DNA of 33,839 bases from Myxococcota bacterium (GTDB lineage Bacteria; Myxococcota_A; SURF-8; G963663525): contig CAXXVK010000050.1 in assembly GCA_963676915.2 (NCBI GenBank), positions 1 through 33,839 of the forward strand, in the 5' to 3' direction. Below the pieces are notes generated by a model that was given only the letters and a program-made list of their open reading frames with translations, was not told where the DNA came from and did no database searches. Positions 2 to 29,579 of this stretch are shown here, piece by piece. A program made the translations under genes and the position numbers. How positions within the stretch are numbered: position 1 is the first letter of the stretch; each line of letters begins with the position of its first letter.

Positions 2-1459
2 AATATTTCCGGCGGGGAACGACACAAGACCGTTTATTGTTTCGATGGTGCGGAGGATGTCAGCAGCGCCGGGGTAGAACATTTGGTCTTTACCGCACCT
101 GCCGACGATACGTATACCTTGGTTATCGATGCTGCGCAGATGTCGACCCATGGGACCGCCGATTACTCGCTTCGGAGACTGACTCCCGACGATCCGCTAG
201 CCGGTGGAACACCTGCCTATGTGGCGGGGGATGATGGCTATGTGGTGTTGGGTGCCGAGGCTCTGGACTGGTACGAAGCCCGTGTCACCTGTGAAAGCGG
301 ATCGGAAGCACTGGGTATGGAAACCGTGATGGATGACGACCGGTTGGGACGTATACAACAGGCTTTCCAGAGCGTAGGTAATGTCGCTGTCTGGACGGAT
401 CTCAACGACCGTGCCGTGGAAGGTGAGTTCCACCATAGTGATGAATCCGCCGTATACGGAGGTTACCCGTTAGAGCAGTCCATCGAAAACAACGGAGAAA
501 GCCAATCTTTCGTTTCTCTGTCTTTGGGAAATGAGTCTGCATGGATGTGCCGTTCTTGGGATGGTGAGGACGTTTATCCATTGTGCCGTAGGGATTTCGA
601 TATGGAGTGTACGGATATCGTCACCTCGCTGACGTTATCTCAACTGGAGGAAGGCGAACAGTGGATCGACTCTAAACGCAGCTTTTTCGGGAGTCTGCTG
701 ACTCCGAAAATCAATGCGGATTGCGGTGAAGCATCTCCGCTTGGTGTGGGTTCTGAGCAGTTGATCCGTATCGTTCCCCAAGGGGGAGAAAACCTGGAAG
801 TCAAATTGCTTGGGTATTCTTTCGACGCTCTGTTGGCCGTCGTGCCCGGATGCGATAGCTCGATGCAGACCTGCCTTGCCAAGGCGGACGAAACGCTTGC
901 GGCAGGGATGGAAACCGTGCATTTCACAGCCGAAGATTCCCGGCCTGTGTTTGTCGTAATGGATACGAAGGCTCGAAACACTTCGGGAAGCTGGCAGGTG
1001 ATGGCGAGGCTCATGCATTCGGAGGCTGCCACAGGAGAAACCTTTACGATTGGCGAGTCGGAATATCTGTTGGGAAGCGAATCCATGTTCTGGCTTTCGG
1101 CTTTGGATGCCTGCCGTAATTGGGGTGGAGATCTGGCCGCGCCGTCCACGACAGCGGAGCGGGATGCTTTGCTGGTCGAGCTGGCTTCTCGGGTTCCGGC
1201 TTATCGGCAGGTATGGAGCGGTTTGACCGACAAGCCGTTCTTTACCGAACCGGATGTGGCCGAGGACGACCCCTGGAACGATCGTTTGAGTTGGACGAAC
1301 GGAGAAACGTACGATCCTTCGGTGCACTTAACCTATACTCATACCGACGATAAAGATTGCATGGTGTATTACTATCTCAGTTCAGGCGAGTGGAAGGATA
1401 TAGCGAAAAACTGCGAAGAGGACAGCGATCACAAAGCCTTGCCGCTTTGCGAGCGTTGA
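2..1459 (+). CDS. Large extracellular multidomain protein, 5'-truncated by the window; PPC-like beta-sandwich modules and a C-terminal C-type lectin-like domain
   Basis: Frame is open from base 2 (NISGGERHKTVYCFDGAEDVSSAGVEHLVFTAP...), so the true start lies upstream. The C-terminus has the CTLD pattern: YLL..SMFWLSALDACRNWGGDLA..(W)SGLTD..LSWTNGE..DCMVY..GEWKD..CEE..LPLCE. Confidence 0.7.
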   Translation, partial: NISGGERHKTVYCFDGAEDVSSAGVEHLVFTAPADDTYTLVIDAAQMSTHGTADYSLRRLTPDDPLAGGTPAYVAGDDGYVVLGAEALDWYEARVTCESGSEALGMETVMDDDRLGRIQQAFQSVGNVAVWTDLNDRAVEGEFHHSDESAVYGGYPLEQSIENNGESQSFVSLSLGNESAWMCRSWDGEDVYPLCRRDFDMECTDIVTSLTLSQLEEGEQWIDSKRSFFGSLLTPKINADCGEASPLGVGSEQLIRIVPQGGENLEVKLLGYSFDALLAVVPGCDSSMQTCLAKADETLAAGMETVHFTAEDSRPVFVVMDTKARNTSGSWQVMARLMHSEAATGETFTIGESEYLLGSESMFWLSALDACRNWGGDLAAPSTTAERDALLVELASRVPAYRQVWSGLTDKPFFTEPDVAEDDPWNDRLSWTNGETYDPSVHLTYTHTDDKDCMVYYYLSSGEWKDIAKNCEEDSDHKALPLCER

Positions 1460-1501
1460 CCTGAAGGTGTTCTCGAAAGAATCATCATTTCACGATAGAA
1501 G

Positions 1502-1530
1502 TTGACTTGCAGCGTCAAACCCTCCAGAAT
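1502..1530 (+). promoter_or_regulatory. Putative sigma70 promoter of the lipoprotein array, with a TTGAC-N7-GTCAA palindrome over the -35
   Basis: TTGACT (1502-1507), 17-bp spacer, CAGAAT (1525-1530). Inverted repeat TTGAC ttgcagc GTCAA at 1502-1518. SD AGGAGG at 1542-1547 precedes ATG 1558. Confidence 0.45.
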
Positions 1531-1557
1531 AATCCTATTCTAGGAGGAGTTGTCTGC

Positions 1558-3066
1558 ATGTTGCGATTTGTCGTATCTACCGTCATTTTCGTAAAAACCG
1601 GCGTGTGCCTGTGGTTGTTGGTTTTATTCGCCATACTGGCAGGATGCGCCGATGCGGGTGGTGTTGCCATGGTACTCGTTCCGGGGGATTCTGTAGAGAT
1701 TCCAGAGGTTTCGCAAACCGATGACGATTCGGATATAGCGGAGAGCTTTCCCGATGAGGACGGAATAAACATCCCTCCCGCCGATCCCGATGAGGAAGAT
1801 ATCCCGCAAGAAATCACGGATGAAGACGAATCCGAAATGGACGAAGATGAGCCGGATTTGGATGAAAATGAACCGGAGAATGACGAAGCGGAAGTGGAGG
1901 AGGATGCCGAACCGCCGTTGATCGAGTACAACTTGTTTCCGTTTGCCGGTGTGCGGGTCGAGCCTTGTGAACGTGAAATGGGACGTACTAACATAGACAA
2001 AAACAACGCGGTGTGGAGCGATGGAGAGGGGCTTACCTGGTTCGGAGCGTTAAACGGGATTTGGATTTATAACAAGGAACCTTCTCCATCGCTGCATTGT
2101 GACGAAGAGGTGGGAGAAAAGGTTGTCTGTCTCGATGGTCGCCGAGTCGGAGACGAAACCGAGCTTTGGGCCGGATTTGCACGGGGAAAAGTTGGACGAT
2201 GGCGAAATGGGGGCTGGCATTTCGAGACGGTTCCTGAAGCTATTCAAGATGAGGTTGTTACGGGAGACGACGCAGAGGAATTGGAAGAATGGCAGGGGAT
2301 GATCTGGGCTTTGGACGTGCATGAAGACGGCACGTTGGCAGTGCAGGGACCGCTTGGCCTGGCGTTGCGAGATCCATCAGGAGTCTGGATGGTCGCCGAT
2401 TGTCTCGGCGTAGATTGGGGTATGCCTGTTGCATCGGATACGACGTACTACCTGAAAATCGATCATCTTCCGTTCGTCGGTCTACGATGGATGGAGGATC
2501 GGCTACTCGCCGGTGCGAATCGAACGGTGGTGGCTATCGACAAAAATTCAGGAACCTGCGAAGCGATTTGCACGACCGACGAGGGCCAGCTTGCAGTCGC
2601 TCCGGGAAGAACGGACCGGGTGATTGTTGGCAGGAGTGTGCAGGGGGGGCACGATTACCGCGGTCCTTGGGCGACCATTTACAATTATACTGGAAAGGTT
2701 GGAGAATGCCATAATGGCATTTGGAGAGAATCGACAGAAATCGATGACGAAGTATCCACTTTCTTCGATTTGAATACAGGACTGTTTGTTGTTGAAGGGT
2801 CGGCTCGTATAGGGATAAGAACCTATATCGGTTGGGTACAGATATGTATTATTCGAGTTGGTTTACACTATTTTCATGCATTTCATGAAACAACTCGAAA
2901 ATTTGCTGATGAATTTTTTTCGTCAAATTACTGTAATGGGCTTGGTTTTAATCCATATCCTGGTGTAGGTGCATCGTTCGGATTACGCCAAAACCTCTGG
3001 TTCGACGAAGAGGAAAAACACGGTTGGTACTCTTTCGGACCAAGCCGAATCAAACTGAACCGTTGA
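1558..3066 (+). CDS. Polymorphic lipoprotein, copy 1 (lipobox LAGC, acidic linker, probable beta-propeller body with variable C-terminal half), 502 aa
   Basis: ATG 1558 follows AGGAGG. Hydrophobic signal ends in LAG|C, followed by an Asp/Glu-rich stalk. Clear paralog of 3142..5537 and 5612..7111. Ends QNLWFDEEEKHGWYSFGPSRIKLNR. The fold is inferred from beta-strand repeats such as TWFGALNGIWIY, ELWAGF and IWALDVHEDGTLAV. Confidence 0.8.
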   Translation: MLRFVVSTVIFVKTGVCLWLLVLFAILAGCADAGGVAMVLVPGDSVEIPEVSQTDDDSDIAESFPDEDGINIPPADPDEEDIPQEITDEDESEMDEDEPDLDENEPENDEAEVEEDAEPPLIEYNLFPFAGVRVEPCEREMGRTNIDKNNAVWSDGEGLTWFGALNGIWIYNKEPSPSLHCDEEVGEKVVCLDGRRVGDETELWAGFARGKVGRWRNGGWHFETVPEAIQDEVVTGDDAEELEEWQGMIWALDVHEDGTLAVQGPLGLALRDPSGVWMVADCLGVDWGMPVASDTTYYLKIDHLPFVGLRWMEDRLLAGANRTVVAIDKNSGTCEAICTTDEGQLAVAPGRTDRVIVGRSVQGGHDYRGPWATIYNYTGKVGECHNGIWRESTEIDDEVSTFFDLNTGLFVVEGSARIGIRTYIGWVQICIIRVGLHYFHAFHETTRKFADEFFSSNYCNGLGFNPYPGVGASFGLRQNLWFDEEEKHGWYSFGPSRIKLNR

Positions 3067-3072
3067 AAAACG

Positions 3073-3110
3073 GGACGATACACAAAGTCGCTACGAAATT
3101 TTATTCGTGG
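3073..3110. repeat. 38-bp post-gene motif, copy 1 (diverged)
   Basis: GGACGAtacacaaAGTCGCTACGAAATTTTATTCGTGG. Shares the GGACGA...AGTCGCTACGAAATTT..ATTCGTGG frame with copies at 5544 and 7119. Confidence 0.8.
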
Positions 3111-4528
3111 AAAAATCCTGTAAGAACAGAGGGTGTTCTGTATGTTGCGAACCGTTGTTTCCGTAAAAACCGGCATGTGCCTGTGGTTGCTGGTTTTATT
3201 CGCCATACTGGTGGGATGTACCGATTCGGGTGGCATCTTCATGGTATTCGATCCGGGGGATTCTGTAGAGATTTCAGAGGTTTCGCAAACCGATGACGAT
3301 TCGGATATAGCGGAGAGCTTTCCCGATGAGGACGAAATAAACATCCCTCCTGCCGATCTCGATAAGGAAGATATCCCGCAAGAAATCATGGATGAAGACG
3401 AATCCAAAGAGGACGAAGAGGAGAACGAGCCGGATTTGGATGAAATGGAACCGGAGAGTGACGAAACGGAAGCTGAGGAAGACATCGAGCCGCCGTTGGT
3501 CGAGTACAGCGTGTTTCCCGATTCAGAGGTGCAGATTGAACCTTGCTTACGTGATCGGACTCATTCTTCCATGCACATAACGAATGCTGTATGGAGCAAT
3601 GGTGTAGGACGAACCTGGTTCGGAGCTTACAACGGTATTTGGATTCATGACGAGGAGCCTTCTCCGCTATTGCATTGTGACGAAGAAGTCGGAGAAAAGG
3701 TAATTTGCCTGGATGGTCGCCGTGTCGGAGACGAAACCGAGCTTTGGGCCGGATTTGCGCGGGGCAAAGTCGGACGATGGCGAAATGGGGTCTGGCATTT
3801 CGAAACGGTTCCCGAAGAGATTCAAGATGAGGTGGTAGAGGATGACGACGTAGATCTGGAAGATTGGCAAGGAATGATCTGGGGATTGGCCGTACACGAA
3901 GATGGCACGTTGGCTGTCCAGGGACCGCTTGGTTTGGCCTTGCGCGATCCGTCCGGCGTTTGGAGTGTTCCGAGTTGTCCCGATGTAGATTGGGGGATGC
4001 CGAAAGTAGAGTACCTTAAAGAGTTTGGTACTGCACACTACATTGATCGACCGCCTTTTGTTGGATTGCGTTGGATTAATAATGCAGTATATGCAGGCGC
4101 ATTACAAAAATTATATGCCATCGACCTTGAAACAGAAGTTTGTAGTTTGGCCTGTTCTGCCGACGATGGTCAACTTGCAATCTTGCCGAGTCGAACCAGT
4201 CGGATGCTCGTTGGAAAAAGCATAATTACTCCAGAATTTCCAATGGCTGATTGGGAAAATTCCTATCATGCTACCAAATACGTTGGAGAGTGCCTTGGCA
4301 ATGCCTGGCATCGCATATATGTAAATGAATCCGATCCGGATGATGATGTTGAAATGTCTTCGTCAAGCGATTTGATTTCAGGAATATTCCTTGCGTTTGG
4401 CGCAGTCAAGGGTGGAATCAGTTTTATGTTTACTCCTGAATGTCGGTATTTCACATACGCCAATTATCGTTATATGGGTGAACTCCATGATTTTTGCTAT
4501 CGGGATGACAAATTAGCACCATATTCTA

Positions 4529-5395
4529 GACAGTGTCGACACGAGAAAACGATTTATCTGGACAAAATCCTCGGCTTCTCGATATATTTCTATTTACTAG
4601 AATATATCGAGAGGAATTACCATGGAAGCTGCCTACCATCGTCACGATATTTCCGATCACGTATGGAATCTCCTGGAACCCCATCTACCTGGACGCTCCG
4701 GCGAGTGGGGAGGCGTGGCGGAAGACAATCGACGATTCATCAATGCTGTTTTCTGGATTCTGCGTACCGGTGCGCCGTGGCGTGACCTACCCCCGGATTA
4801 CGGTGGCTGGAACAACACGAACCGTCGTTTTTGCCGATGGCGCGACAAGGGAATCTGGGAGAAATTGCTTGAGATCCTCATTGACGATCCCGACTACGAA
4901 TGGTTGATGATCGACGCCAGCCACGTCAAAGTGCATCCTGACGCCGCAGGAGCGAAGGGTGGCAATCAAGCGATGGGCCGTACAAAAGGGGGCTCAACAG
5001 TAAGATACATTTGGCCGTGGATGCGCATGGTAATCCAGTCCGAGCGATTGTTACAGAGGGTACCCGAGCAGATTGCAAGGAAGCTTGCGCATTGATCGAA
5101 GGAATCGACGCCGAGTATTTATTGGCTGATCGCGGCTACGATACGAACGTGATCCTTGAAAAAGCCGAAAACGCGGAGATGGTGGCAGTCATTCCTCCGA
5201 AAAAGAATCGGAAAGTTCAACGACCATACGATAAAGAGCTTTATCGTGTTCGACATCTGGTCGAAAACGCTTTTCTGAAACTGAAACGATGGCGAGGAAT
5301 CGCTACACGATACGCAAAAAACGCGGCATCTTTCCTCGCAGCCGTTCATATCAGATGTCTCGCTCTCTGGCTTGATATCTCGTGACGACACTGCC
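4529..5395 (+). mobile_element. IS5-family insertion sequence (IS427-like, two-ORF), 867 bp
   Basis: Terminal inverted repeats GACAGTGTCGACACGAGA (4529-4546) and TCTCGTGACGACACTGCC (5378-5395) match at 16/18. Flanked by a TA duplication (4527-4528 and 5396-5397). Encodes a DDE transposase. Confidence 0.95.
4622..5385 (+). CDS. IS5-family transposase, OrfA (4622..) and OrfB (..5385) joined by a probable programmed -1 frameshift
   Basis: OrfA has RRFINAVFWILRTGAPWRDLP..YGGW..RRFCRW..GIW and IDASHVK. OrfB has LADRGYD, VIPPKKNRK and YRVRHLVENAFLKLKRWRGIATRYAK. Slippery AAAAGGGGG at ~4984-4992; a -1 shift gives the canonical GRTKGG-LNSKIHLAVDAHGNP. Confidence 0.92.
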
Positions 5396-5543
5396 TAAGA
5401 CACTTAATTTCACTTCAGGGGGTGGTTTGCAAGTTCATTGCACATCCTCTGCATTAAATCACAATCTCTGGTTTGACGAAGAAGAGGAACACGGTTGGTT
5501 TTCTTTCGGACCAAGTCGCATCAAGCTGAACCGTTGAAAAACG

Positions 5544-5581
5544 GGACGAGCGAAGCGAGTCGCTACGAAATTTATTCGTGG
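5544..5581. repeat. 38-bp post-gene motif, copy 2
   Basis: GGACGAGCGAAGCGAGTCGCTACGAAATTTATTCGTGG, identical to 7119-7156. Confidence 0.85.
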
Positions 5582-5611
5582 GAAAGCATTTTGACAACAA
5601 GGGTACCGTGC

Positions 5612-7111
5612 ATGTTGCAAGCCATCGTTTCCGTAAAAACCTGCATATACCTGTGGTTGCTGGTTTTATCCGCCATACTGGCGGGATGCACCGATGCGGG
5701 TGGTGTAGCCATGGCACTTGTTCCGGGGGATTCTGTAGAGATTCCAGAGGTTTTGCAAGCCGATGACGATTCGGATATAGCGGAGAGCTTTCCCGATGAG
5801 GACGAGATAAACATCCCTCCCGCCGATCCCGACGAGGAAGATATCCCGCAAGAAACCATGGATGAAGACGAATCCGAAATGGACGAAGATGAGCCGGATT
5901 TGGATGAAAATGAACCGGAGAGTGACGAAGCGGAGGTGGAGGAGTATACCGAGCCGCCGTTGGTCGAGTACAGCGTGTTTCCCGATTCCGAGGTGCAGAT
6001 TGAACCTTGCTTACGTGATCGGACTCATTCTTCCATGCACATAACGAATGCTGTATGGAGTAATGGTGAAGGACGAACTTGGTTCGGAGCTTACAACGGT
6101 ATTTGGATTCATGACGAGGAACCTTCTCCGCTATTGCATTGTGACGAAGAAGTCGGAGAAAAGGTAATTTGCCTGGATGGTCGCCGCGTTGGTGGCGAAA
6201 CCGAACTTTGGGCAGGATTTGCACGGGGTAAAGTCGGACGATGGCGAAATGGGGTCTGGCATTTCGAAACGGTTCCTGAAGCGATTTTGGACGACGTAGC
6301 AGTCGTAGATGGTGTGGAGAATCTGAAAGATTGGCAAGGAATGATCTGGGGATTGGCCGTACACGAAGACGGTACGTTGGCTGTCCAGGGACCGCTTGGT
6401 TTGGCCTTACGCGACCCGTCCGGCGTTTGGAGTGTTCCGAGTTGTATCGATGTAGATTGGGGGATGCCGGAAATCATAGAAAATGATCATCACGGATTAT
6501 ATCCTCCTTTGGATCGACGACCTTTTACAGGGCTTAGTTGGGTTGGGGATACTTTGCATGTTGGTGCTTGGCAGGCAATATTCAAGATCGATAAGAATTC
6601 TGGATTATGTGAGAAGTCGTGTACGACCGGAGTTGGTAATATTGTCGTAATACCAAGTAGAGCGGATAGAGTACTGGCAATCCATTTACAAGGAGAGATT
6701 GCTCCTTATTCTTCGCTAGGGTCGCATTTGTGCGGAGGTCGAGCGAAAGTCTTTGGTGAATGTCGGGAAGGTACATGGTCTGAGGTGGAACGCCAGGTTA
6801 TGGGTGGAAGTATTGCGGCAATGGATTTACAGACGGAATTGTTTTATGCAGTAGGTATTGTTGGTAGTCGGTATGTTTGGCCAATTTGGGAATATTATTG
6901 CACAGTGGGTAATTGGGTGGTTTACAAGGGGGAAAGAATTCAGAGCAATCATGATTCTTTATTATGGACCTATTGTAGTCTTCATGGCTGGGTATCTACC
7001 ATTGACCTTTGTCATGCCAATTCAGCTCTTGGTCAAAACCTCTGGTTCGACGAAGAAGAAAAACACGGTTGGTACTCTTTCGGACCAAGTAGGATAAAAA
7101 TAAATCGCTAA
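5612..7111 (+). CDS. Polymorphic lipoprotein, copy 3 (lipobox LAGC), 499 aa
   Basis: ATG 5612 aligns with the starts of copies 1 and 2 (MLQAIVSVKT vs MLRTVVSVKT). Same architecture. Ends QNLWFDEEEKHGWYSFGPSRIKINR. Confidence 0.8.
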   Translation: MLQAIVSVKTCIYLWLLVLSAILAGCTDAGGVAMALVPGDSVEIPEVLQADDDSDIAESFPDEDEINIPPADPDEEDIPQETMDEDESEMDEDEPDLDENEPESDEAEVEEYTEPPLVEYSVFPDSEVQIEPCLRDRTHSSMHITNAVWSNGEGRTWFGAYNGIWIHDEEPSPLLHCDEEVGEKVICLDGRRVGGETELWAGFARGKVGRWRNGVWHFETVPEAILDDVAVVDGVENLKDWQGMIWGLAVHEDGTLAVQGPLGLALRDPSGVWSVPSCIDVDWGMPEIIENDHHGLYPPLDRRPFTGLSWVGDTLHVGAWQAIFKIDKNSGLCEKSCTTGVGNIVVIPSRADRVLAIHLQGEIAPYSSLGSHLCGGRAKVFGECREGTWSEVERQVMGGSIAAMDLQTELFYAVGIVGSRYVWPIWEYYCTVGNWVVYKGERIQSNHDSLLWTYCSLHGWVSTIDLCHANSALGQNLWFDEEEKHGWYSFGPSRIKINR

Positions 7112-7118
7112 AAAACTA

Positions 7119-7156
7119 GGACGAGCGAAGCGAGTCGCTACGAAATTTATTCGTGG
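7119..7156. repeat. 38-bp post-gene motif, copy 3
   Basis: Identical to 5544-5581 and marks the right end of the array. Confidence 0.85.
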
Positions 7157-7211
7157 AAAATTGCAATGCCGTTTTCTTCGCAAATCCGGGAAAATCCATG
7201 AAACAAGTGGG

Positions 7212-7778
7212 TTATTCCTCGTTTTTTCGGAAGTCCTCCCGCAGCAGATCCATGATCACCTCATCTCGCCATTGTCCACCGATGTAGCGGTGTCGACGAA
7301 GGCGGCCGACTTCTTGAAAGCCTACTTTGGTATACGCTCGGTGGGCGCGGTGGTTGAAGTCCCAATGGTAGAGGATGATTTTGTGCAGATTGAGGCTGTC
7401 GAAACCGTAGCGGACCAGCATTCGCATGGCTTCGGTGCCGAATCCGGCGTTCCAGTATGGTTTTCCGATGAAAATCCCCAGCGTGGCGAAATGATGCCGG
7501 GGGTCGATGTCCATCAAGCTGGTATTACCGATCAAAACCTTTGGATTTTTTTGCCAGATTGCGCAATGAACCGTCTTTGCCGGGTCGGCGTTGACCATTT
7601 CTTCGAGGAAAGCTTTTTCTTTTTCCAGGGTGATCGGTTTGTGCCAGAGCAGGAAATTGGCGGTTTCCTCGTCGTTGATCCAGCGGGCATACAAGGGGGC
7701 GTCTTCCGAACGCACCGGGCATAAATCTATCTTGTCACCGGCCAGAAATACCGGAGGGTGGGACGATTGAACGTTCAT
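7212..7778 (-). CDS. GNAT family N-acetyltransferase (RimJ/RimL/SpeG-like)
   Basis: LIGNTSL..ID..H..ATLGIFIGKPYWNAGFGTEAM..YGFDSLNLHKI.L...N.RA.RAYTKVGFQEVGRLR..YIGGQWRDE..M.LLR. Confidence 0.9.
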   Translation of the reverse strand: MNVQSSHPPVFLAGDKIDLCPVRSEDAPLYARWINDEETANFLLWHKPITLEKEKAFLEEMVNADPAKTVHCAIWQKNPKVLIGNTSLMDIDPRHHFATLGIFIGKPYWNAGFGTEAMRMLVRYGFDSLNLHKIILYHWDFNHRAHRAYTKVGFQEVGRLRRHRYIGGQWRDEVIMDLLREDFRKNEE

Positions 7779-7844: not shown

Positions 7845-9494
7845 TCAGAATTGGATGACAACCTCGTTGCCGGTGCTCTGCTGTCCTCCGCCACCGTCGC
7901 TGCCGCAAATGACACCTGCACCGCACAAGGCTCCTGCCGTCGCTCCACCGGCCACGACGACACCGACGATGGTCCATAGCCACCAGGCCTTGTACAAGGG
8001 CGTTTCGTCGTCTTCCAACTCGGTGATTTCCTCTTCGACGACGGGAGCCACATAGTTGGGCGTCCAGCGCGTGGCGTTGGAAAACAGCCGGTCGAGATGT
8101 TCGTTAACGGCGGAAACAAGGTTGGTTTTTCGTAAGTTGTGCCGTTTTTGCAAAGCACGATGCCGACCTTTGTCGGGGATCTCGTTACCGTATTCATCCG
8201 TACCCAACGAACCTTTTTTGGCTCGCATGTCGTAATAATACGCCTTGATGTTCATATCGCCATCGTCCATGCCGACGCGCATCAGCAGCAGGCGATAGCT
8301 TCGGACCACTTTGCTCAGGCGAGCGACATTGGTAAACATTTCGGCATGCTCGAACTTCTTCTGCATCGCCTTGACTTCGCTGATAAAGGGATAGTACTTT
8401 GCCACCTGTTGCAGATCGACGGGTAATTCTTTGGCGATCCCTTTATAAATCGTGCTCTTCGTACGGTAATCTTTGTAACCGTCCATGCTGACTTTGATCG
8501 AGTGCTCACCTACGGGAAGATCTCCGATTTCCAGTGGCGTAAGTCCTTTGAACTGCCCGTCTACGAAGACTTCCAACCCTCTCGGTTTCGACTCGGTGAT
8601 TTTCAACGTGCCCATTTCCATTTCTTCCATGGACTTGCCGGTTTCTTCGAAAACCTTGCGTACGTCGGCGTTATCCAACATGGGAGGCTCGGCTTTGGGA
8701 TCGAAAGACAGCATGTTGCGGAACGCCTCTTCGGCCTTTCTTTTCTGTTTGGCCAGAATCATCGAGGTTCCCTGGTAGCCGTAGGCTTTTGCGCTTTGGG
8801 TGCGGTATTCGACGAACTCCAACAAGGGCTGGCAGGCAAGAGCCGTTTCACCGAATTGTTTGGCCGCCTTGGAGTATTCCTCGTCCTCGAACGATTGCAT
8901 GGCGGCTTTCATCTTCTTTTCGATCTTTTCCGCTTCGCTTTTTTCATTGACGGTGGAACGATCTTTTAACGCCAGATTGGTTGGAACGAGGCGAAGTTTG
9001 GAGTTTGTTCGAAGCCATGAGCGGGCCGTGATGCGCACTTGGGCGGCGGCTTCGTCACTGAGGCGATCCTCGGACATGACAACGAGAATGACCTTTTTTC
9101 CACCTTTAACGCCCGGTTGGAAGGTAGATTGATCCAACGGAGGAAGAATGTATTCTTCGTATTCTTCCTCGGCTTCGTCTTCCTCGTCATCTTCATCATC
9201 CGAAACGGTGGCAGGCTGAGAGGCGGGTTTTTCCTCGGAGGCCTCGTCTTCGGCGTCCTCCTCATCCTCGTCTTCTTCCGCTTCGTCCTCGTCATCCACT
9301 TCGTCTTCATCCTCCTCGGCCTCGTCGCCGAGAAGTTCATCGTCGTCCATTTCGAGAAGGTCGAGGGCGTCTTGCGCCTCCGCTCGCTGAACGAACCCGA
9401 TTCTCAAAAGATCGAGATTGAGGAATTGCACCAACAAGACGATCTGCATCCACGTGAAAAACCGCCAAAAAGGACTGCTTTTGAGCCTGATCAT
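7845..9494 (-). CDS. PEGA domain-containing membrane/secreted protein with acidic stalk, TPR-like helices and C-terminal TM segment
   Basis: PEGA motif GTLKITESKPRGLEVFVDGQFKGLTPLEIGDLPVGEHSIKVSMDGYKDY. C-terminal PLYKAWWLWTIVGVVVAGG. N-terminal signal ending AEA. Start uncertain (ATG 9494 or TTG 9509). Confidence 0.8.
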   Translation of the reverse strand: MIRLKSSPFWRFFTWMQIVLLVQFLNLDLLRIGFVQRAEAQDALDLLEMDDDELLGDEAEEDEDEVDDEDEAEEDEDEEDAEDEASEEKPASQPATVSDDEDDEEDEAEEEYEEYILPPLDQSTFQPGVKGGKKVILVVMSEDRLSDEAAAQVRITARSWLRTNSKLRLVPTNLALKDRSTVNEKSEAEKIEKKMKAAMQSFEDEEYSKAAKQFGETALACQPLLEFVEYRTQSAKAYGYQGTSMILAKQKRKAEEAFRNMLSFDPKAEPPMLDNADVRKVFEETGKSMEEMEMGTLKITESKPRGLEVFVDGQFKGLTPLEIGDLPVGEHSIKVSMDGYKDYRTKSTIYKGIAKELPVDLQQVAKYYPFISEVKAMQKKFEHAEMFTNVARLSKVVRSYRLLLMRVGMDDGDMNIKAYYYDMRAKKGSLGTDEYGNEIPDKGRHRALQKRHNLRKTNLVSAVNEHLDRLFSNATRWTPNYVAPVVEEEITELEDDETPLYKAWWLWTIVGVVVAGGATAGALCGAGVICGSDGGGGQQSTGNEVVIQF

Positions 9495-9600
9495 CGAACT
9501 CTCCACCAAAAAGTCAGGAAATTCTATAGGAAGGTTACAACGATAAATTAGGCGATGCCAGCTTTTTTTAGGTTCAACGCGGAATTGGGAGGAATGGTTG

Positions 9601-20433: not shown

Positions 20434-21720
20434 CTAGTCCGGTATAGGTTCCAGGTCGTTTTCTCCAAACGCTTTTAAATGCGCTGGATGAACGCCGGGG
20501 CATTGTTTGCGCCAGCGACATTGGGCGCAGGGTTCGGGATGAACCAGACCGAAATCCTCTAAATCCTCTTTGAAAGGACGTTGGGCTACGGCTTCGCGGC
20601 AGTCTTGCGGGTATCCGCAGGGAGGAAGTCGACCGATGATAAACGGCTGGTTGTTTTGGCAGAGGTCGTCCAGCTTGCGTAACTCCTGAAACGATGGAGA
20701 TAACTCCCCGTAACCCCAGCCGTAGCCTTTGTCGGGAAACCACAGTCCGACGAAGTATTCCCAGCCCTTTCCTTCGCAGATTCGCGCCGTTTCGAGAAAG
20801 TCGTGAAGGTTCTGGCGCATCAGGGGTAGGTTGAGTTGGAAGGCGACGCCGTTTTTCTCCAGGTTTTCAATAGCTTTGAGCAAAACGGCCAGTGCTCCCG
20901 ATGTTTGCACGATACCATCGTAAGTAGCAGCGTCGAAACTATGTAGTGGCAGGAAGACTTTGTCCAGACCGGCTTCGGCCAGTCGGGCGACGTGCTCATG
21001 GTCTTGCAGTCCGCTACCTGGAGCTTGTACCTCAACTCGTTGAAAACCGGCATTTTTTGCTCGCTGAATGGTTTCTTCGAGATAGGGATTCAATGTGGCA
21101 TCGGGGCCGTGAATCAACAGGGTAGTGTTGAGGGAAGCCTGCCGTTCGATCCAGCCGAAATTCGGACGTGTCAGTGCGTTTGGAGCCAGTCGTTCCGAGA
21201 TCGACAAATGTAAGTCGAACGCCGCTTGTTTCCAACGATGAAAACGGGAGAATTTCTGCCGGTAGTGATCCTGACACAGCAGGCAACGTCGGCCACAGCG
21301 GGAATGAAGCGAAATCTCGGCCCGACCTTCCGGGGGGCGGGATAAATCGTTGAAATTCTTGATATCCGGCGTGCGTGCTGTTTTCGGCAATTTTCCGGCG
21401 AAAAGCGTTTTGGGAGGTTTGGGCGTATCTTGGGATACGAGGCTTACAAGGAGCGCTGCATAGCTTTCGGGAGGCTGCACGGTGGTGTCGTCGGGAGGGT
21501 TGCGCAAGATACTGAAATCCACATAGTTTCCGGTGACATCCGACGTACCATGACCGCCGGGTCGCACTTCGATCCAGACTTTTTCGTTGTCTCGGAGATA
21601 AACCAACAGAAAGCGGTTGGGTTCCTCTATCACTCGTTCGAGATCCCAGCCATCGATTCGAGCGTTCAAGCCTACATCTCGTATCCAGGCCATCGATTCG
21701 GAAATGTTGTTTTCACGCAT
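20434..21720 (-). CDS. Radical SAM protein with C-terminal CxxC-x5-C motif (HxsC-like architecture)
   Basis: CGRRCLLC (CxxxCxxC). LAEAGLDKVFLPLHSFDAATYDGIVQTSGA..KAIENL. C-terminal PCAQCRWRKQCPGV..HL..FG...L.P. Confidence 0.75.
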   Translation of the reverse strand: MRENNISESMAWIRDVGLNARIDGWDLERVIEEPNRFLLVYLRDNEKVWIEVRPGGHGTSDVTGNYVDFSILRNPPDDTTVQPPESYAALLVSLVSQDTPKPPKTLFAGKLPKTARTPDIKNFNDLSRPPEGRAEISLHSRCGRRCLLCQDHYRQKFSRFHRWKQAAFDLHLSISERLAPNALTRPNFGWIERQASLNTTLLIHGPDATLNPYLEETIQRAKNAGFQRVEVQAPGSGLQDHEHVARLAEAGLDKVFLPLHSFDAATYDGIVQTSGALAVLLKAIENLEKNGVAFQLNLPLMRQNLHDFLETARICEGKGWEYFVGLWFPDKGYGWGYGELSPSFQELRKLDDLCQNNQPFIIGRLPPCGYPQDCREAVAQRPFKEDLEDFGLVHPEPCAQCRWRKQCPGVHPAHLKAFGENDLEPIPD

Positions 21721-27502: not shown

Positions 27503-27545
27503 CCTTCATGCGCGGGCGAGGAGATCGCCTCAACTCGCATGGAGG
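27503..27545 (+). promoter_or_regulatory. Hairpin sequestering the Shine-Dalgarno of the DCCP-like gene
   Basis: CCTTCATGCG (27503-27512) pairs with CGCATGGAGG (27536-27545) over 10 bp with one G-U. The 3' arm contains the GGAGG SD. Confidence 0.45.
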
Positions 27546-27549
27546 AATC

Positions 27550-28839
27550 ATGAGCGAACAACCTGTGGATTATCGCCCGATGTGGACCGAACTGGGTCTG
27601 GATCTGGATAAGCACGACGCGTTGCTGTCAGTGCTGGGCCAGGCGTATCAGGATCTGTATCTGTCCCAGAAAAACCGTCCGGAAGGCATGGCGTATTTCG
27701 ATTTCGTGATGAGCGAGGTCCACGGCCTTCGTATTCAGGAACTGATGAACGCCAAAAAGGAAGGCCGCCTCGTTGTCGGCTCCTTCTGTGTGTTCGTCCC
27801 CGAGGAACTGATCCTCGCCGTAGACGGCGTTTCGGTGGGACTGTGTGCCGGAGCAGAATTCGGTCTGGAAGCCGCCGAGCGTTACGTGCCTCGTAACACC
27901 TGCTCGTTAATCAAATCCGCCTTTGGCTTTGCTGCCGAAAAGGTGTGTCCATACCTCGCTGCTTCCGACATCGTGGTTGGGGAAAATACCTGCGACGGCA
28001 AGAAAAAGAGCTACGAAGCCTTTGCCGATCTCGTAAACGGCTTTTACGCCATGGATCTTCCCCAGGTAAAAAGCGAAGCGGGCCGGGAGCTGCTGAAAAC
28101 GGAATTCTTGCGGTTCACAAAGCTGTTGGAGGAACGCTCGGGCAAAGCCATTACCGTCGAAAGCCTGAAAAAAAGCATCGAAACGGTCAATGCCAAACGT
28201 CGCGCCATGCATCGCCTGGCGGAGTTGCGAAAAGGCAATCCTTCCCCGGTTTCAGGCATGGATGCCCTGTTGATCAACCAAGTGTTTTTCTATGACGATC
28301 CCGTGCGCTTTACCGCCTCCGTCGAAAAAATCAACGACGAGTTGCAAGACCGCATTCTCAACGGCAAAGGCGTCGTCGAGAAAGGCACGCCGCGAATCGT
28401 CGTGTCCGGTTGTCCGATGGCGGTTCCCAACTGGAAAGTACACAGCATCGTCGAAAGCTCCGGCGCGGTGGTGGTTGGGGATGAATCCTGCGTCGGCGAA
28501 CGCGGAACCCAGAACCTTACGGATGCCTCGGGAGACAGCGTGGAAGCCCTCATCGATAATCTTGTGGATCGCTATTTCGAGATCGACTGCGCGATTTTCA
28601 CACCCAACCCGAAGCGGCTGGAACACGTCAAAGAGATCCAGAAGAAAACGGATGCCGACGGCGTATTGCATTACGGTTTGCAGTTCTGCACGCCTTACCA
28701 GATGGAATCGATGCCGTTTGAAAAGAATCTTGAAGAGGCAGGGATTCCCGCATTGCGAATCGACACGGATTACAGCCAAGAGGATGTCGAGCAGATCCGT
28801 ACGCGGATTGAAGCGTTTATCGAAAGGATCAAATCGTGA
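27550..28839 (+). CDS. Double-cubane cluster protein (DCCP)-like / 2-hydroxyacyl-CoA dehydratase family Fe-S enzyme
   Basis: N-terminal MWTELGLDLDKHDALL..NRPEGMAYFD.V.SEVHGLRIQEL, as recalled for DCCPs. Cys motifs SFCVFVPEE, GLCAGA, PRNTCSLIKS, GENTCDGKKK, SGCP, DESCVG, IDCA, QFCTPY. C-terminal DTDYSQED.EQIRTRIEAF.E. Confidence 0.88.
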   Translation: MSEQPVDYRPMWTELGLDLDKHDALLSVLGQAYQDLYLSQKNRPEGMAYFDFVMSEVHGLRIQELMNAKKEGRLVVGSFCVFVPEELILAVDGVSVGLCAGAEFGLEAAERYVPRNTCSLIKSAFGFAAEKVCPYLAASDIVVGENTCDGKKKSYEAFADLVNGFYAMDLPQVKSEAGRELLKTEFLRFTKLLEERSGKAITVESLKKSIETVNAKRRAMHRLAELRKGNPSPVSGMDALLINQVFFYDDPVRFTASVEKINDELQDRILNGKGVVEKGTPRIVVSGCPMAVPNWKVHSIVESSGAVVVGDESCVGERGTQNLTDASGDSVEALIDNLVDRYFEIDCAIFTPNPKRLEHVKEIQKKTDADGVLHYGLQFCTPYQMESMPFEKNLEEAGIPALRIDTDYSQEDVEQIRTRIEAFIERIKS

Positions 28840-29579
28840 CGGCGCGTGTTGCGGGAATCGATATCGGATCGCGTACCATCAAGCTCGTGGTGTCCGATGA
28901 GAGTCGGATCGAGCGGCAGGAGGTTCGTCCCAATTCTCACGATCCTATCGCCGTTTGTCGCGAACTTCTCAACGGGGAAAGCTACGATCGTCTTGTTGCG
29001 ACGGGCTATGGACGGCACCTTTTCGAGCAATACTACGATTGTTCGGTGGTGACGGAAATCAAGGCCGTTTCGCTGGGTACCCGTGCGCTTTTTCCTGAGG
29101 CTCGAACCGTGTTGGACATCGGCGGGCAGGATACCAAGTGCATTTCCCTCGATGACGCCGGGCGCATGACGAAGTTCGAAATGAACGACAAATGCGCGGC
29201 GGGAACGGGGAAATTCCTCGAAGTGATGGCAACGGCTCTGGGATACACGATGGGTGATTTTATCGGAGCGGCCCGAAATGCGGAACAATCCAGGAAAATC
29301 AACGCCATGTGTACGGTTTTTGCCGAAAGCGAGGTAATCGGTCTCGTAGCCAGGGAAACACCCCGTGACGAATTGGCCCGTGGACTACACGAGGCGGTTG
29401 CCAATCGAGCGGCGGCGATGGCGAAAAGGCTGTCTTTGAAACCCGATATCGTGTTTTGCGGTGGTGCGGCGAAAAACACTTGTCTCGTCGAGTTGTTGCA
29501 AGAACGTCTCGGACAACCGTTAAGTGTGGCAGATGATACTCAGATTGTCGCTGCATTGGGTTGTACGTTGGTTTCCTGA
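28836..29579 (+). CDS. ATP-dependent activator/reductase (HgdC/BadF-like ASKHA [4Fe-4S] ATPase; DCCP-R-like)
   Basis: GIDIGSRTIK, ATGYGR, LDIGGQDTK, MNDKCAAGTGKFLE, AMCTVFAESE. GTGA overlap with the upstream gene. Confidence 0.93.
   Translation: MTARVAGIDIGSRTIKLVVSDESRIERQEVRPNSHDPIAVCRELLNGESYDRLVATGYGRHLFEQYYDCSVVTEIKAVSLGTRALFPEARTVLDIGGQDTKCISLDDAGRMTKFEMNDKCAAGTGKFLEVMATALGYTMGDFIGAARNAEQSRKINAMCTVFAESEVIGLVARETPRDELARGLHEAVANRAAAMAKRLSLKPDIVFCGGAAKNTCLVELLQERLGQPLSVADDTQIVAALGCTLVS

What the first reader, a model, noticed from the sequence alone, without database searches (positions are those of the whole stretch)
1558..7156. Tandem array of constant-variable-constant lipoprotein cassettes: candidate surface-diversification system
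Seen: three head-to-tail ~1.58-kb units. Each encodes a lipobox, an acidic stalk and a highly similar region up to DWGMP, then a ~190-aa segment that keeps only a sparse skeleton (DxxPFxGLxW..GA..ID..C..C..G..P.R..GEC..W..DL), then a near-invariant 25-aa tail (xNLWFDEEExHGWxSFGPSRIKxNR) and a shared 38-bp DNA motif. Variable segments are 2428-2988, 4003-5459 (minus the IS) and 6470-7033. Divergent DNA between two homology blocks is the layout that lets whole binding surfaces be swapped by recombination. Inference: a family of stalked beta-propeller receptors or adhesins under diversifying selection (prey, kin or phage recognition), with the conserved tail closing the propeller onto the conserved N-half. 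I do not recognise it as a named family.
Basis: partly seen in the sequence, partly recalled or inferred. Interest (0 to 1): 0.85.

Follow-up and report, generated by a model that had tools for sequence, protein, structure and literature searches.

The report
Tandem mosaic propeller lipoprotein genes
Three neighbouring genes (one broken by a jumping element) and a fourth elsewhere encode lipid-anchored seven-bladed propeller proteins of an unnamed family, and recombination has kept their ends alike while one sector stays very different; this looks like an unusually clear case of gene-family evolution, with no sign of a switching machine.

Summary
Window 1558-7156 carries three head-to-tail paralogs: c1, c2 (split by an 869-bp IS) and c3. 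A fourth copy, c4, lies on another contig. Each has a lipobox, an acidic linker of about 85 aa and a 385-aa domain that AlphaFold models as a 7-bladed beta-propeller. No Pfam or NCBIfam model matches, but a family profile reaches Reg_prop (PF07494) sensor propellers at blade level. The family is rare: about 30 clusters among 1.8 billion representatives, and 7 of the 10 genomes held for this Myxococcota order.

Silent-site divergence changes sharply along the genes. For c2 against c3 it is 0.07, 0.16, 0.65 and 0.38 (signal peptide plus linker, constant core, variable part, tail). c1 resembles c2/c3 at its 5' end and c4 elsewhere. So the copies are recombinant mosaics, and paralog pairs in three other genera show the same pattern.

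I found no silent cassettes, no template repeat and no recombinase. dN/dS is not significantly above 1, although a 57-aa segment has pN/pS of 1.4 against 0.22 for the rest.

Best reading: an ordinary tandem paralog family with gene conversion and a poorly constrained, probably ligand-specific sector. It is not shown to be a programmed diversification system. Ligand and location are unknown.

The parts
1558..3066 (+). c1: intact paralog, 502 aa. Signal peptide with lipobox Cys at residue 30 (nt 1645-1647), acidic linker about 1648-1908, propeller domain 1909-3063.
1909..2427 (+). c1 constant part of the propeller: N-terminal strand plus blades A-C, up to the DWGMP motif.
   Evidence: (dN/dS 0.04-0.12)
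2428..2988 (+). c1 variable sector (blades D-F). 28-35% aa identity to c2 and c3, 77% to c4.
2812..2982 (+). Hot segment within the c1 variable sector (c1 residues 419-475). Against c4 there are 30 nonsynonymous and 6 synonymous changes. AlphaFold leaves it unmodelled (pLDDT below 50).
2989..3066 (+). c1 conserved C-terminal tail (three predicted strands) and stop codon.
3067..3141 (+). c1-c2 spacer with a degenerate copy of the intergenic hairpin motif.
   Evidence: (D6)
3142..4528 (+). c2, 5' part (462 codons), up to the IS insertion point. Lipobox Cys at residue 26.
4529..5397 (+). IS5/IS4-type insertion sequence (DUF4096 and DDE_Tnp_1 ORFs in two frames), including one TA of the target duplication. 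Six identical copies in the genome.
5398..5537 (+). c2, 3' part: end of the variable sector, the conserved tail and the stop codon.
5544..5582 (+). Intergenic 39-nt motif after c2, with a predicted 7-bp hairpin.
5612..7111 (+). c3: intact paralog, 499 aa. Variable sector 6470-7033.
7119..7157 (+). Intergenic 39-nt motif after c3 (1 mismatch to the copy after c2). Marks the 3' end of the repeated unit.

Best explanation
The locus is a tandem expansion of a lineage-restricted, unnamed family of lipid-anchored proteins. Each has a lipoprotein signal peptide, a D/E/P-rich linker of about 85 aa, and a single 7-bladed beta-propeller whose blades are distantly related to the Reg_prop ligand-sensor propellers.

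Shown: the four copies in this genome are recombinant mosaics. Gene conversion or unequal exchange has homogenised the stretch that runs across each unit junction (tail, spacer, signal peptide, linker), and in c2/c3 the whole N-terminal half. The sector made of blades D-F descends from much older divergence.

Inferred: that sector, and above all a 57-60-aa segment before the tail, is weakly constrained or under diversifying selection. Once it had diverged, it no longer had the homology that conversion needs. The paralogs therefore keep one scaffold with different binding sectors, and each probably recognises a different ligand in the envelope or outside the cell. I see no dedicated switching machinery. 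All copies are complete genes with their own start and lipobox, and c2 was recently inactivated by an active IS.
For: Architecture and fold: pLDDT 73.5, pTM 0.79, 32-sequence alignment; Z about 21 to 7-bladed propellers over model residues 1-385.

Kinship: a profile of 13 domains found 178 proteins at E<=1e-3. About 30 of these are full-length relatives of 400-570 aa. The rest are mostly proteins of 1000-1600 aa, hit 7-11 times at profile positions about 70-120. Of 7 of those scanned, 5 carry PF07494 Reg_prop. The nearest ESM Atlas clusters are Reg_prop clusters, scores 0.92-0.94.

Purifying selection: core dN/dS is 0.04-0.12.

Mosaicism:
- Fraction of 4-fold silent sites differing, given as signal peptide plus linker / core / variable / tail: c2-c3 0.07/0.16/0.65/0.38; c1-c2 0.10/0.50/0.64/0.22; c1-c4 0.45/0.29/0.22/0.42.
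- Maximum chi-square breakpoints: c1 resembles c2/c3 left of codon 89-138 and c4 to the right (chi2 197-247, 0 of 1000 permutations as high). c2 and c3 are alike left of codon 300 (chi2 26-53, 0 of 1000).
- The same sharp local drops occur between paralogs in G003, G004 and G007.

No machinery: the variable segments match only the four genes. No recombinase or reverse transcriptase lies in the window. The genome's two reverse transcriptases sit on other contigs. No gene neighbourhood is conserved across the 10 loci examined.
Against: No ligand, location or expression data exist. The lipobox was read by eye against a recalled pattern; no predictor was run. The hot segment has pN/pS 1.42 between the closest pair, and its ratio of nonsynonymous to synonymous changes (30:6) differs from the rest of the domain (49:67; Fisher p=1.7e-5). 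That fits diversifying selection as well as relaxed constraint. The 3' block does carry exact runs of 24-38 nt between copies, so exchange on both sides of the variable sector is mechanically possible. That such mosaics recur in four genera could mean sector exchange is itself selected. Tail counts are small: 2/9, 2/7 and 3/8 sites.
Confidence: 0.55

Rival explanations
1. Adaptive cassette exchange. The variable three-blade sector is repeatedly swapped between paralogs or strains by homologous recombination in the conserved N-half and in the tail plus spacer. Selection for a changing surface receptor (phage escape, prey or kin recognition) drives the swapping.
For: The constant-variable-constant layout holds at silent sites. 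Breakpoints lie at the constant/variable boundary near codon 300. Exact 24-38-nt runs lie 3' of the sector and 60-71-nt runs lie 5'. The same mosaic occurs in paralog pairs of G003, G004 and G007. The hot segment has pN/pS 1.42. The family was not found in the one congeneric genome held (96% complete), and the array site differs there.
Against: There is no reservoir of silent or partial cassettes. Every copy is a complete gene. No recombinase is nearby. pN/pS is not significantly above 1 (p=0.5). Elsewhere in the variable part dN/dS is 0.27-0.49. The variable sectors are saturated at silent sites, so any exchange was ancient or came from unsampled donors. Surface exposure is unknown.
Confidence: 0.2
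2. A periplasmic tethered propeller, not a surface receptor. The acidic linker lets a lipoprotein anchored in one membrane reach across the periplasm, and the propeller acts as a scaffold or binding partner there. The variable segment is a structurally unconstrained insertion that drifts neutrally.
For: The long disordered acidic linker follows directly on the lipid anchor. Unrelated lipoproteins of the same genus have the same kind of linker; the hits in G001 cover only residues 10-116. The hot segment is unmodelled by AlphaFold and is poorly conserved and rich in indels across the family. Its pN/pS of about 1 fits neutrality.
Against: One to five divergent paralogs per genome and patchy presence (7 of 10 genomes) are unusual for a core envelope component. 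Four nearly invariant cysteines suggest a stable, disulfide-bonded extracytoplasmic domain but do not tell where it sits.
Confidence: 0.2
3. An enzyme of the propeller lyase/lactonase type whose substrate pocket lies in the variable half.
For: Virginiamycin B lyase (2z2n) is among the top structural matches (Z 21.2, rmsd 3.0, 257 aligned). One Reg_prop protein hit by the profile also matches the SGL and Vgb_lyase Pfam models (P0053).
Against: That match is tied with dozens of non-enzymatic WD40 propellers. No enzyme family matches by sequence. No invariant polar residues stand out; the nearly invariant columns are Cys, Trp, Phe, Pro and Gly.
Confidence: 0.05

Closest known systems
Reg_prop (PF07494) beta-propellers, e.g. 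periplasmic sensor domains of hybrid two-component systems
   Same: Blade-level sequence similarity: the family profile hits such proteins 7-11 times each, with E down to 3e-18. The nearest ESM Atlas clusters are Reg_prop clusters. Both have a 7-bladed propeller.
   Different: The Pfam model itself does not match any of the 3 window copies at E<=0.1 or 8 of 8 family members scanned at E<=0.01. There is no Y_Y_Y, kinase or receiver domain. The protein has a single propeller, a lipid anchor and an acidic linker. Solved sensor kinases (3ott, 3va6) score only E=0.23 by sequence.
PorZ-type N-terminal propeller (PF21544)
   Same: Listed on 28% of members of the best Atlas cluster; a lead only.
   Different: Not tested by alignment or structure here. 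No type IX secretion C-terminal domain was seen in the window copies.
Multigene surface-protein families with segmental gene conversion (Neisseria pilE/pilS, Borrelia vlsE; recalled, not from a call)
   Same: A variable segment lies between conserved blocks, and silent-site evidence shows segmental recombination.
   Different: No silent, promoterless cassettes. Each copy is a full gene with its own leader. Four copies, not tens. No single expression site.
Myxococcus TraA polymorphic kin-recognition receptor (recalled, not from a call)
   Same: A Myxococcota envelope protein whose variable domain sets specificity; an analogy only.
   Different: As I recall it, TraA has a different variable-domain fold and a different anchor. 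No homology was tested here.
Generic 7-bladed propellers (WD40 proteins, COPI beta-prime; virginiamycin B lyase 2z2n)
   Same: Fold: Z 19.6-21.8, 242-268 residues aligned.
   Different: 6-14% sequence identity. The matches are tied with one another and say nothing about function.

Membership tests
Pfam PF07494 Reg_prop | Match to the Pfam HMM at or above its gathering score | tested here: not met
   0 families at E<=0.1 for c1, c2 and c3. 0 at E<=0.01 for 8 of 8 family relatives scanned.
Pfam PF07494 Reg_prop | Detectable blade homology to bona fide Reg_prop proteins | tested here: met
   The profile of A2 hits proteins of 1000-1600 aa in 7-11 stretches. 5 of the 7 non-family hits scanned carry Reg_prop, two of them with HisKA, HATPase_c and Response_reg. 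Atlas clusters score 0.92-0.94.
Pfam PF07494 Reg_prop | Beta-propeller fold | tested here: met
   AlphaFold models. Foldseek and VIA-align give 7-bladed propellers.
Bacterial lipoproteins (signal peptidase II substrates) | N-terminal hydrophobic leader ending in a lipobox with an invariant Cys | tested here: met
   LAGC (c1, c3), LVGC (c2) and AGGC (c4) follow a basic, then hydrophobic leader. Relatives carry similar boxes. The pattern was judged by eye against a recalled consensus; no predictor was run.
Bacterial lipoproteins (signal peptidase II substrates) | Lipidation and membrane or surface location | not testable with these tools
   Needs experiment.
Cassette-based antigenic or phase variation systems | Archive of silent partial cassettes that donate to an expression site | tested here: not met
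   tblastn and blastn of the three variable segments against the 5.18-Mb assembly (90.8% complete) hit only c1-c4.
Cassette-based antigenic or phase variation systems | Variable segment flanked by conserved DNA usable for recombination | tested here: met
   The 5' block is about 880 nt with exact runs of 60-71 nt. The 3' block is about 137 nt with exact runs of 24-38 nt. Silent divergence is lower in the flanks than in the centre.
Cassette-based antigenic or phase variation systems | Variants detectable within a population | tested here: inconclusive
   One run was laid, held only as short contigs at low depth. No joints were seen.
Diversity-generating retroelement targets | Template repeat similar to the variable region, plus a nearby reverse transcriptase | tested here: not met
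   No second copy of any variable segment. The two RVT_1 genes lie on contigs C25 and C29, not C50 or C55.

The most novel reading that the evidence does not exclude
An uncultured Myxococcota order carries a receptor family in which a three-blade sector of a lipid-tethered propeller is a swappable specificity module. Recombination in the conserved N-half and in the tail/spacer block moves whole sectors between paralogs and strains. A 57-aa hot segment evolves under diversifying selection driven by phages, prey or kin.
Probability: 0.18. Interest if true: 0.65.

Novelty: new variant of a known kind. Interest (0 to 1): 0.4.

Why it matters
It defines an unannotated, rare envelope-protein family in a poorly known group of Myxococcota: lipobox, acidic tether and a Reg_prop-like 7-bladed propeller. 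It also gives a clean natural example of segmental concerted evolution, in which the unit junctions and the scaffold are homogenised while one sector stays divergent, and this recurs in four genera. If the variable sector is a ligand-specificity module, the family would be a handle on how these bacteria recognise things outside the cell. If not, it is an ordinary paralog expansion that deserves a domain model in the family databases.

Tried and rejected
- Word-indexed protein search: only the window's own 3 proteins.
With c1 alone, 56 pattern hits, none a relative.
- PDB sequence search with the profile: nothing significant, best E 0.035, to antibody chains.
- NCBIfam: no model for 6 of 6 family proteins at a meaningful score.
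- Promoter and terminator scan of 1400-7300: 9 promoter-like sites against 6.3 +/- 2.5 expected, and 2 terminator-like sites against 5.5 +/- 2.3. This is no better than chance, so transcription units are unknown.
- Sequencing runs: one run holds the stretch (share of sampled words 0.88). Laid, it gives only short contigs, no joints and no IS-free allele. Its 'other letters' and loose ends near 5813-5911 look like cross-mapping of c4. It gives no verdict on alternative cassettes.
- Conserved neighbourhood: 38 neighbours of 10 loci were scanned and no partner recurs.
- Synteny with the congeneric genome G001: only GNAT plus PEGA (2.4 kb, 74% nt identity) is shared. The adjoining DNA encodes an FGE-sulfatase-like protein and a PALP enzyme instead of the array.
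- DGR and shufflon-type mechanisms rejected.
- NG86 dS of the tail looked saturated, but this rests on about 20 sites. The 4-fold-site count and the exact runs contradict it, so I dropped my interim reading that the tail is conserved only as protein.
- Literature: two full-text searches returned nothing relevant, going by the listings only.
- Earlier scan notes: none near this place or like this sequence.
- I could not map variable residues onto a face of the model, because model coordinates are not readable in the script box.
Full report
OBSERVATION

The window holds three head-to-tail units. The repeat finder returns three copies of every block, with spacings of 1572-1584 nt and, across the IS, 2464-2471 nt. 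The ORFs are c1 (1558-3066, 502 aa), c2 (from 3142) and c3 (5612-7111, 499 aa).

c2 is interrupted at 4529-5397 by an insertion sequence. Its two ORFs match DUF4096 (3e-25) and DDE_Tnp_1 (3.6e-15). Leaving out these 869 bp (element plus one TA) restores an open frame of 508 aa that ends in the family tail. The same 869 bp occurs 6 times at 100% identity in the assembly. The insertion is therefore recent and the element is probably active.

A fourth complete paralog, c4, lies at G000:C55:12696-14165(-), next to a tyrosine-integrase gene.

A 39-nt spacer motif follows c2 and c3, with 1 mismatch between the two copies. It is degenerate after c1, absent after c4, and found nowhere else in the genome at up to 8 substitutions. 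It folds into a 7-bp hairpin with no T-run. I found no evidence that it has a function of its own.

WHAT THE PROTEINS ARE

Each copy has three parts:
- a basic, then hydrophobic leader ending in a lipobox (LAGC, LVGC or AGGC);
- about 85 residues rich in D, E and P;
- a 385-aa domain.

No Pfam family matches c1-c3 at E<=0.1. None matches 8 of 8 relatives at E<=0.01. NCBIfam has no model either.

A word-indexed search of 5.8 billion proteins found only the window's own products. A profile of 13 domains (alignment A2), scored against 1.84 billion cluster representatives, found 178 proteins at E<=1e-3, 50 at E<=1e-10 and 25 at E<=1e-30. About 30 of these are full-length relatives of 400-570 aa with the same leader, acidic linker and domain layout. 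The 10 I looked up are metagenome-only, unnamed, and have 1-3 member sequences each.

The remaining hits are mostly proteins of 1000-1600 aa, matched 7-11 times at profile positions about 70-120. Of the 7 such hits I scanned, 5 carry Reg_prop (PF07494), and two of those have histidine-kinase and receiver domains. The ESM Atlas agrees: the nearest clusters are Reg_prop 'ligand-binding sensor' clusters, with scores of 0.92-0.94.

AlphaFold2 on a 32-sequence alignment gives pLDDT 73.5 and pTM 0.79. The 13-sequence run gave 64.7 and 0.74. The strands group as follows:
- an N-terminal strand (residues 4-9);
- blades A (34-65), B (74-107), C (134-162), D (192-248) and E (256-295);
- an unmodelled stretch (297-358, pLDDT below 50);
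- three tail strands (363-384).

Structure searches return 7-bladed propellers over the whole model: Z 19.6-21.8 with 242-268 residues aligned, and Foldseek E about 1e-6 to 1e-7. All these matches are tied and generic.

I infer from the strand count that the tail strands and the N-terminal strand form the closing blade. I could not read the coordinates to confirm it. Four cysteines are nearly invariant across the family, which fits an extracytoplasmic domain.

DISTRIBUTION AND CONTEXT

The order is represented by 10 genomes. Seven have the family at E<=1e-5: 4, 5, 3, 2, 2, 1 and 1 matches per genome, where matches need not equal copies. The one congeneric genome held (96% complete) has none. 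There only the neighbouring GNAT and PEGA genes are syntenic, and different genes occupy the array's place.

A record title returned for a same-order genome labels it a Myxococcota MAG. An earlier scan note on this genome says the same.

Neighbours of 10 loci share nothing. The window's other genes are housekeeping or regulatory, apart from a C-type-lectin protein upstream. G002 also has a tandem pair.

MOSAIC EVOLUTION

Nucleotide identity, measured in 30-codon windows, changes abruptly along the genes:
- Signal peptide plus linker: c1, c2 and c3 are 81-98% alike; c4 is 36-65% alike at the 5' end, rising to about 90%.
- Codons 121-165: c2 and c3 are 92-97% alike, c1 and c4 81-83%, and the cross-pairs 59-72%.
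- Codons 166-290: all pairs are 66-98% alike.
- Codons 291-495: c1 and c4 are 75-97% alike; every other pair is 23-61%.
- Tail: 70-88%.

The cleanest measure is the fraction of third positions that differ at 4-fold codons with the same amino acid. The four regions are signal peptide plus linker, core, variable part and tail:

c2-c3: 2/28, 12/75, 15/23, 3/8
c1-c2: 3/31, 30/60, 18/28, 2/9
c1-c3: 3/33, 33/61, 19/24, 2/7
c1-c4: 9/20, 21/73, 16/73, 5/12

A single duplication history cannot give a ten-fold range of silent divergence within one gene pair.

Maximum chi-square tests place a break in c1 at codon 89-138. To the left it resembles c2/c3 and to the right it resembles c4 (chi2 197-247; 0 of 1000 permutations as high). 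They place a break between c2 and c3 at codon 299-300 (chi2 26-53; 0 of 1000).

In a tandem array the tail of one unit, the spacer, and the leader and linker of the next unit are contiguous. The homogenised DNA is therefore best seen as one junction block of about 0.5 kb, and c2 and c3 additionally share their N-terminal half.

Paralog pairs in three other genera show the same kind of sharp local drop:
- G003: 97-98% nt identity with pS 0.00, then 43-54% with pS 0.64-0.79, then 73% in the tail.
- G004: 91-100% over most of the first 220 columns (one window 88%), 49-62% in a short C-terminal stretch, 86% in the tail.
- G007: about 90% in the N-terminal half, then 32-55%.

Family-wide, domain positions 241-360 are the least conserved and the richest in indels, and the tail is conserved again.

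SELECTION

The constant core is under strong purifying selection (dN/dS 0.04-0.12) and the linker under weak constraint (0.6-0.9).

The variable part is saturated for most pairs. For the young c1-c4 pair it gives dS 0.30, dN 0.13 and omega 0.44.

Within it, c1 residues 419-475 (window 2812-2982, the stretch AlphaFold cannot model) carry 30 nonsynonymous and 6 synonymous changes, giving pN/pS 1.42. That is not significantly above 1 (p=0.5). The ratio does differ strongly from the rest of the domain, which has 49:67 (Fisher p=1.7e-5). The tail has 0 nonsynonymous and 7 synonymous changes.

I picked this window after seeing the sliding scan, so it is a lead, not a test.

MECHANISMS CONSIDERED

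No extra full or partial copy of any variable segment exists in the assembly. That excludes a silent-cassette archive and a DGR template repeat, within the limits of a 90.8%-complete assembly. The genome's two reverse transcriptases are on other contigs. The repeat finder showed no inverted repeats bracketing a promoter. The one public run that holds the locus is available only as short contigs and shows no alternative joints, so it gives no verdict.

Exchange on both sides of the sector is mechanically possible. Exact runs reach 60-71 nt in the 5' block and 24-38 nt in the 3' block. Whether 24-38 nt is enough for efficient recombination in this organism is unknown.

VERDICT

The mosaic structure is genuine recombination, not only uneven constraint.

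What is not shown is that this is a system for diversification. The data fit ordinary tandem-paralog dynamics at least as well: duplication, junction-centred gene conversion, and a fast-evolving sector that has escaped homogenisation.

I put the ordinary reading at 0.55, adaptive sector exchange at about 0.2, a periplasmic non-receptor role with neutral variation at about 0.2, and an enzyme at about 0.05. Function, ligand, location and expression remain open.

Noticed in passing
window 4529-5397: IS5/IS4-type element with DUF4096 and DDE ORFs in two overlapping frames (probably a programmed frameshift; that is my inference). Six 100%-identical copies on contigs C6, C50, C59, C60 and C74 (two copies), so it is probably currently active.
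   Followed up: partly
window 2-1459: ORF truncated at its 5' end by the contig edge, with a C-type lectin domain at its C-terminus (Lectin_C, 1.5e-9). It lies directly upstream of the array, so another probable secreted binding protein sits beside the propeller genes.
   Followed up: no
window 7845-9509 (-): PEGA-domain protein with its own long acidic D/E stretch. Long antisense ORFs over such acidic linkers are common here and can mislead ORF callers. The acidic-linker architecture is shared by unrelated lipoproteins of the genus; the hits in G001 cover only the linker.
   Followed up: partly
L040:10213-11406 (G000:C55): A tyrosine integrase (Phage_integrase, Arm-DNA-bind_3) lies about 1 kb from c4, so the fourth paralog may sit at the edge of an integrated element.
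   Followed up: no
L013 (G003:C1, 762-aa ORF) and L020 (G002:C11, 764-aa ORF): Longer family members carry an extra N-terminal module ahead of the propeller. In L013 this is a Cys-rich segment; a neighbouring gene of a third G003 copy has an Lcl_C domain. The propeller is therefore used as a module in larger lipoproteins.
   Followed up: no
L054:12797-13726 (G001:C2): In the congeneric genome, an FGE-sulfatase-like gene and a PALP enzyme occupy the place next to GNAT-PEGA. This flank is a variable region between the two genomes.
   Followed up: partly
window 20434-21720 (-) and 27508-29579 (+): A radical-SAM protein, and a 2-hydroxyglutaryl-CoA dehydratase D-component with its BcrAD/BadFG-type activator. 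These are markers of anaerobic metabolism in the same window.
   Followed up: no
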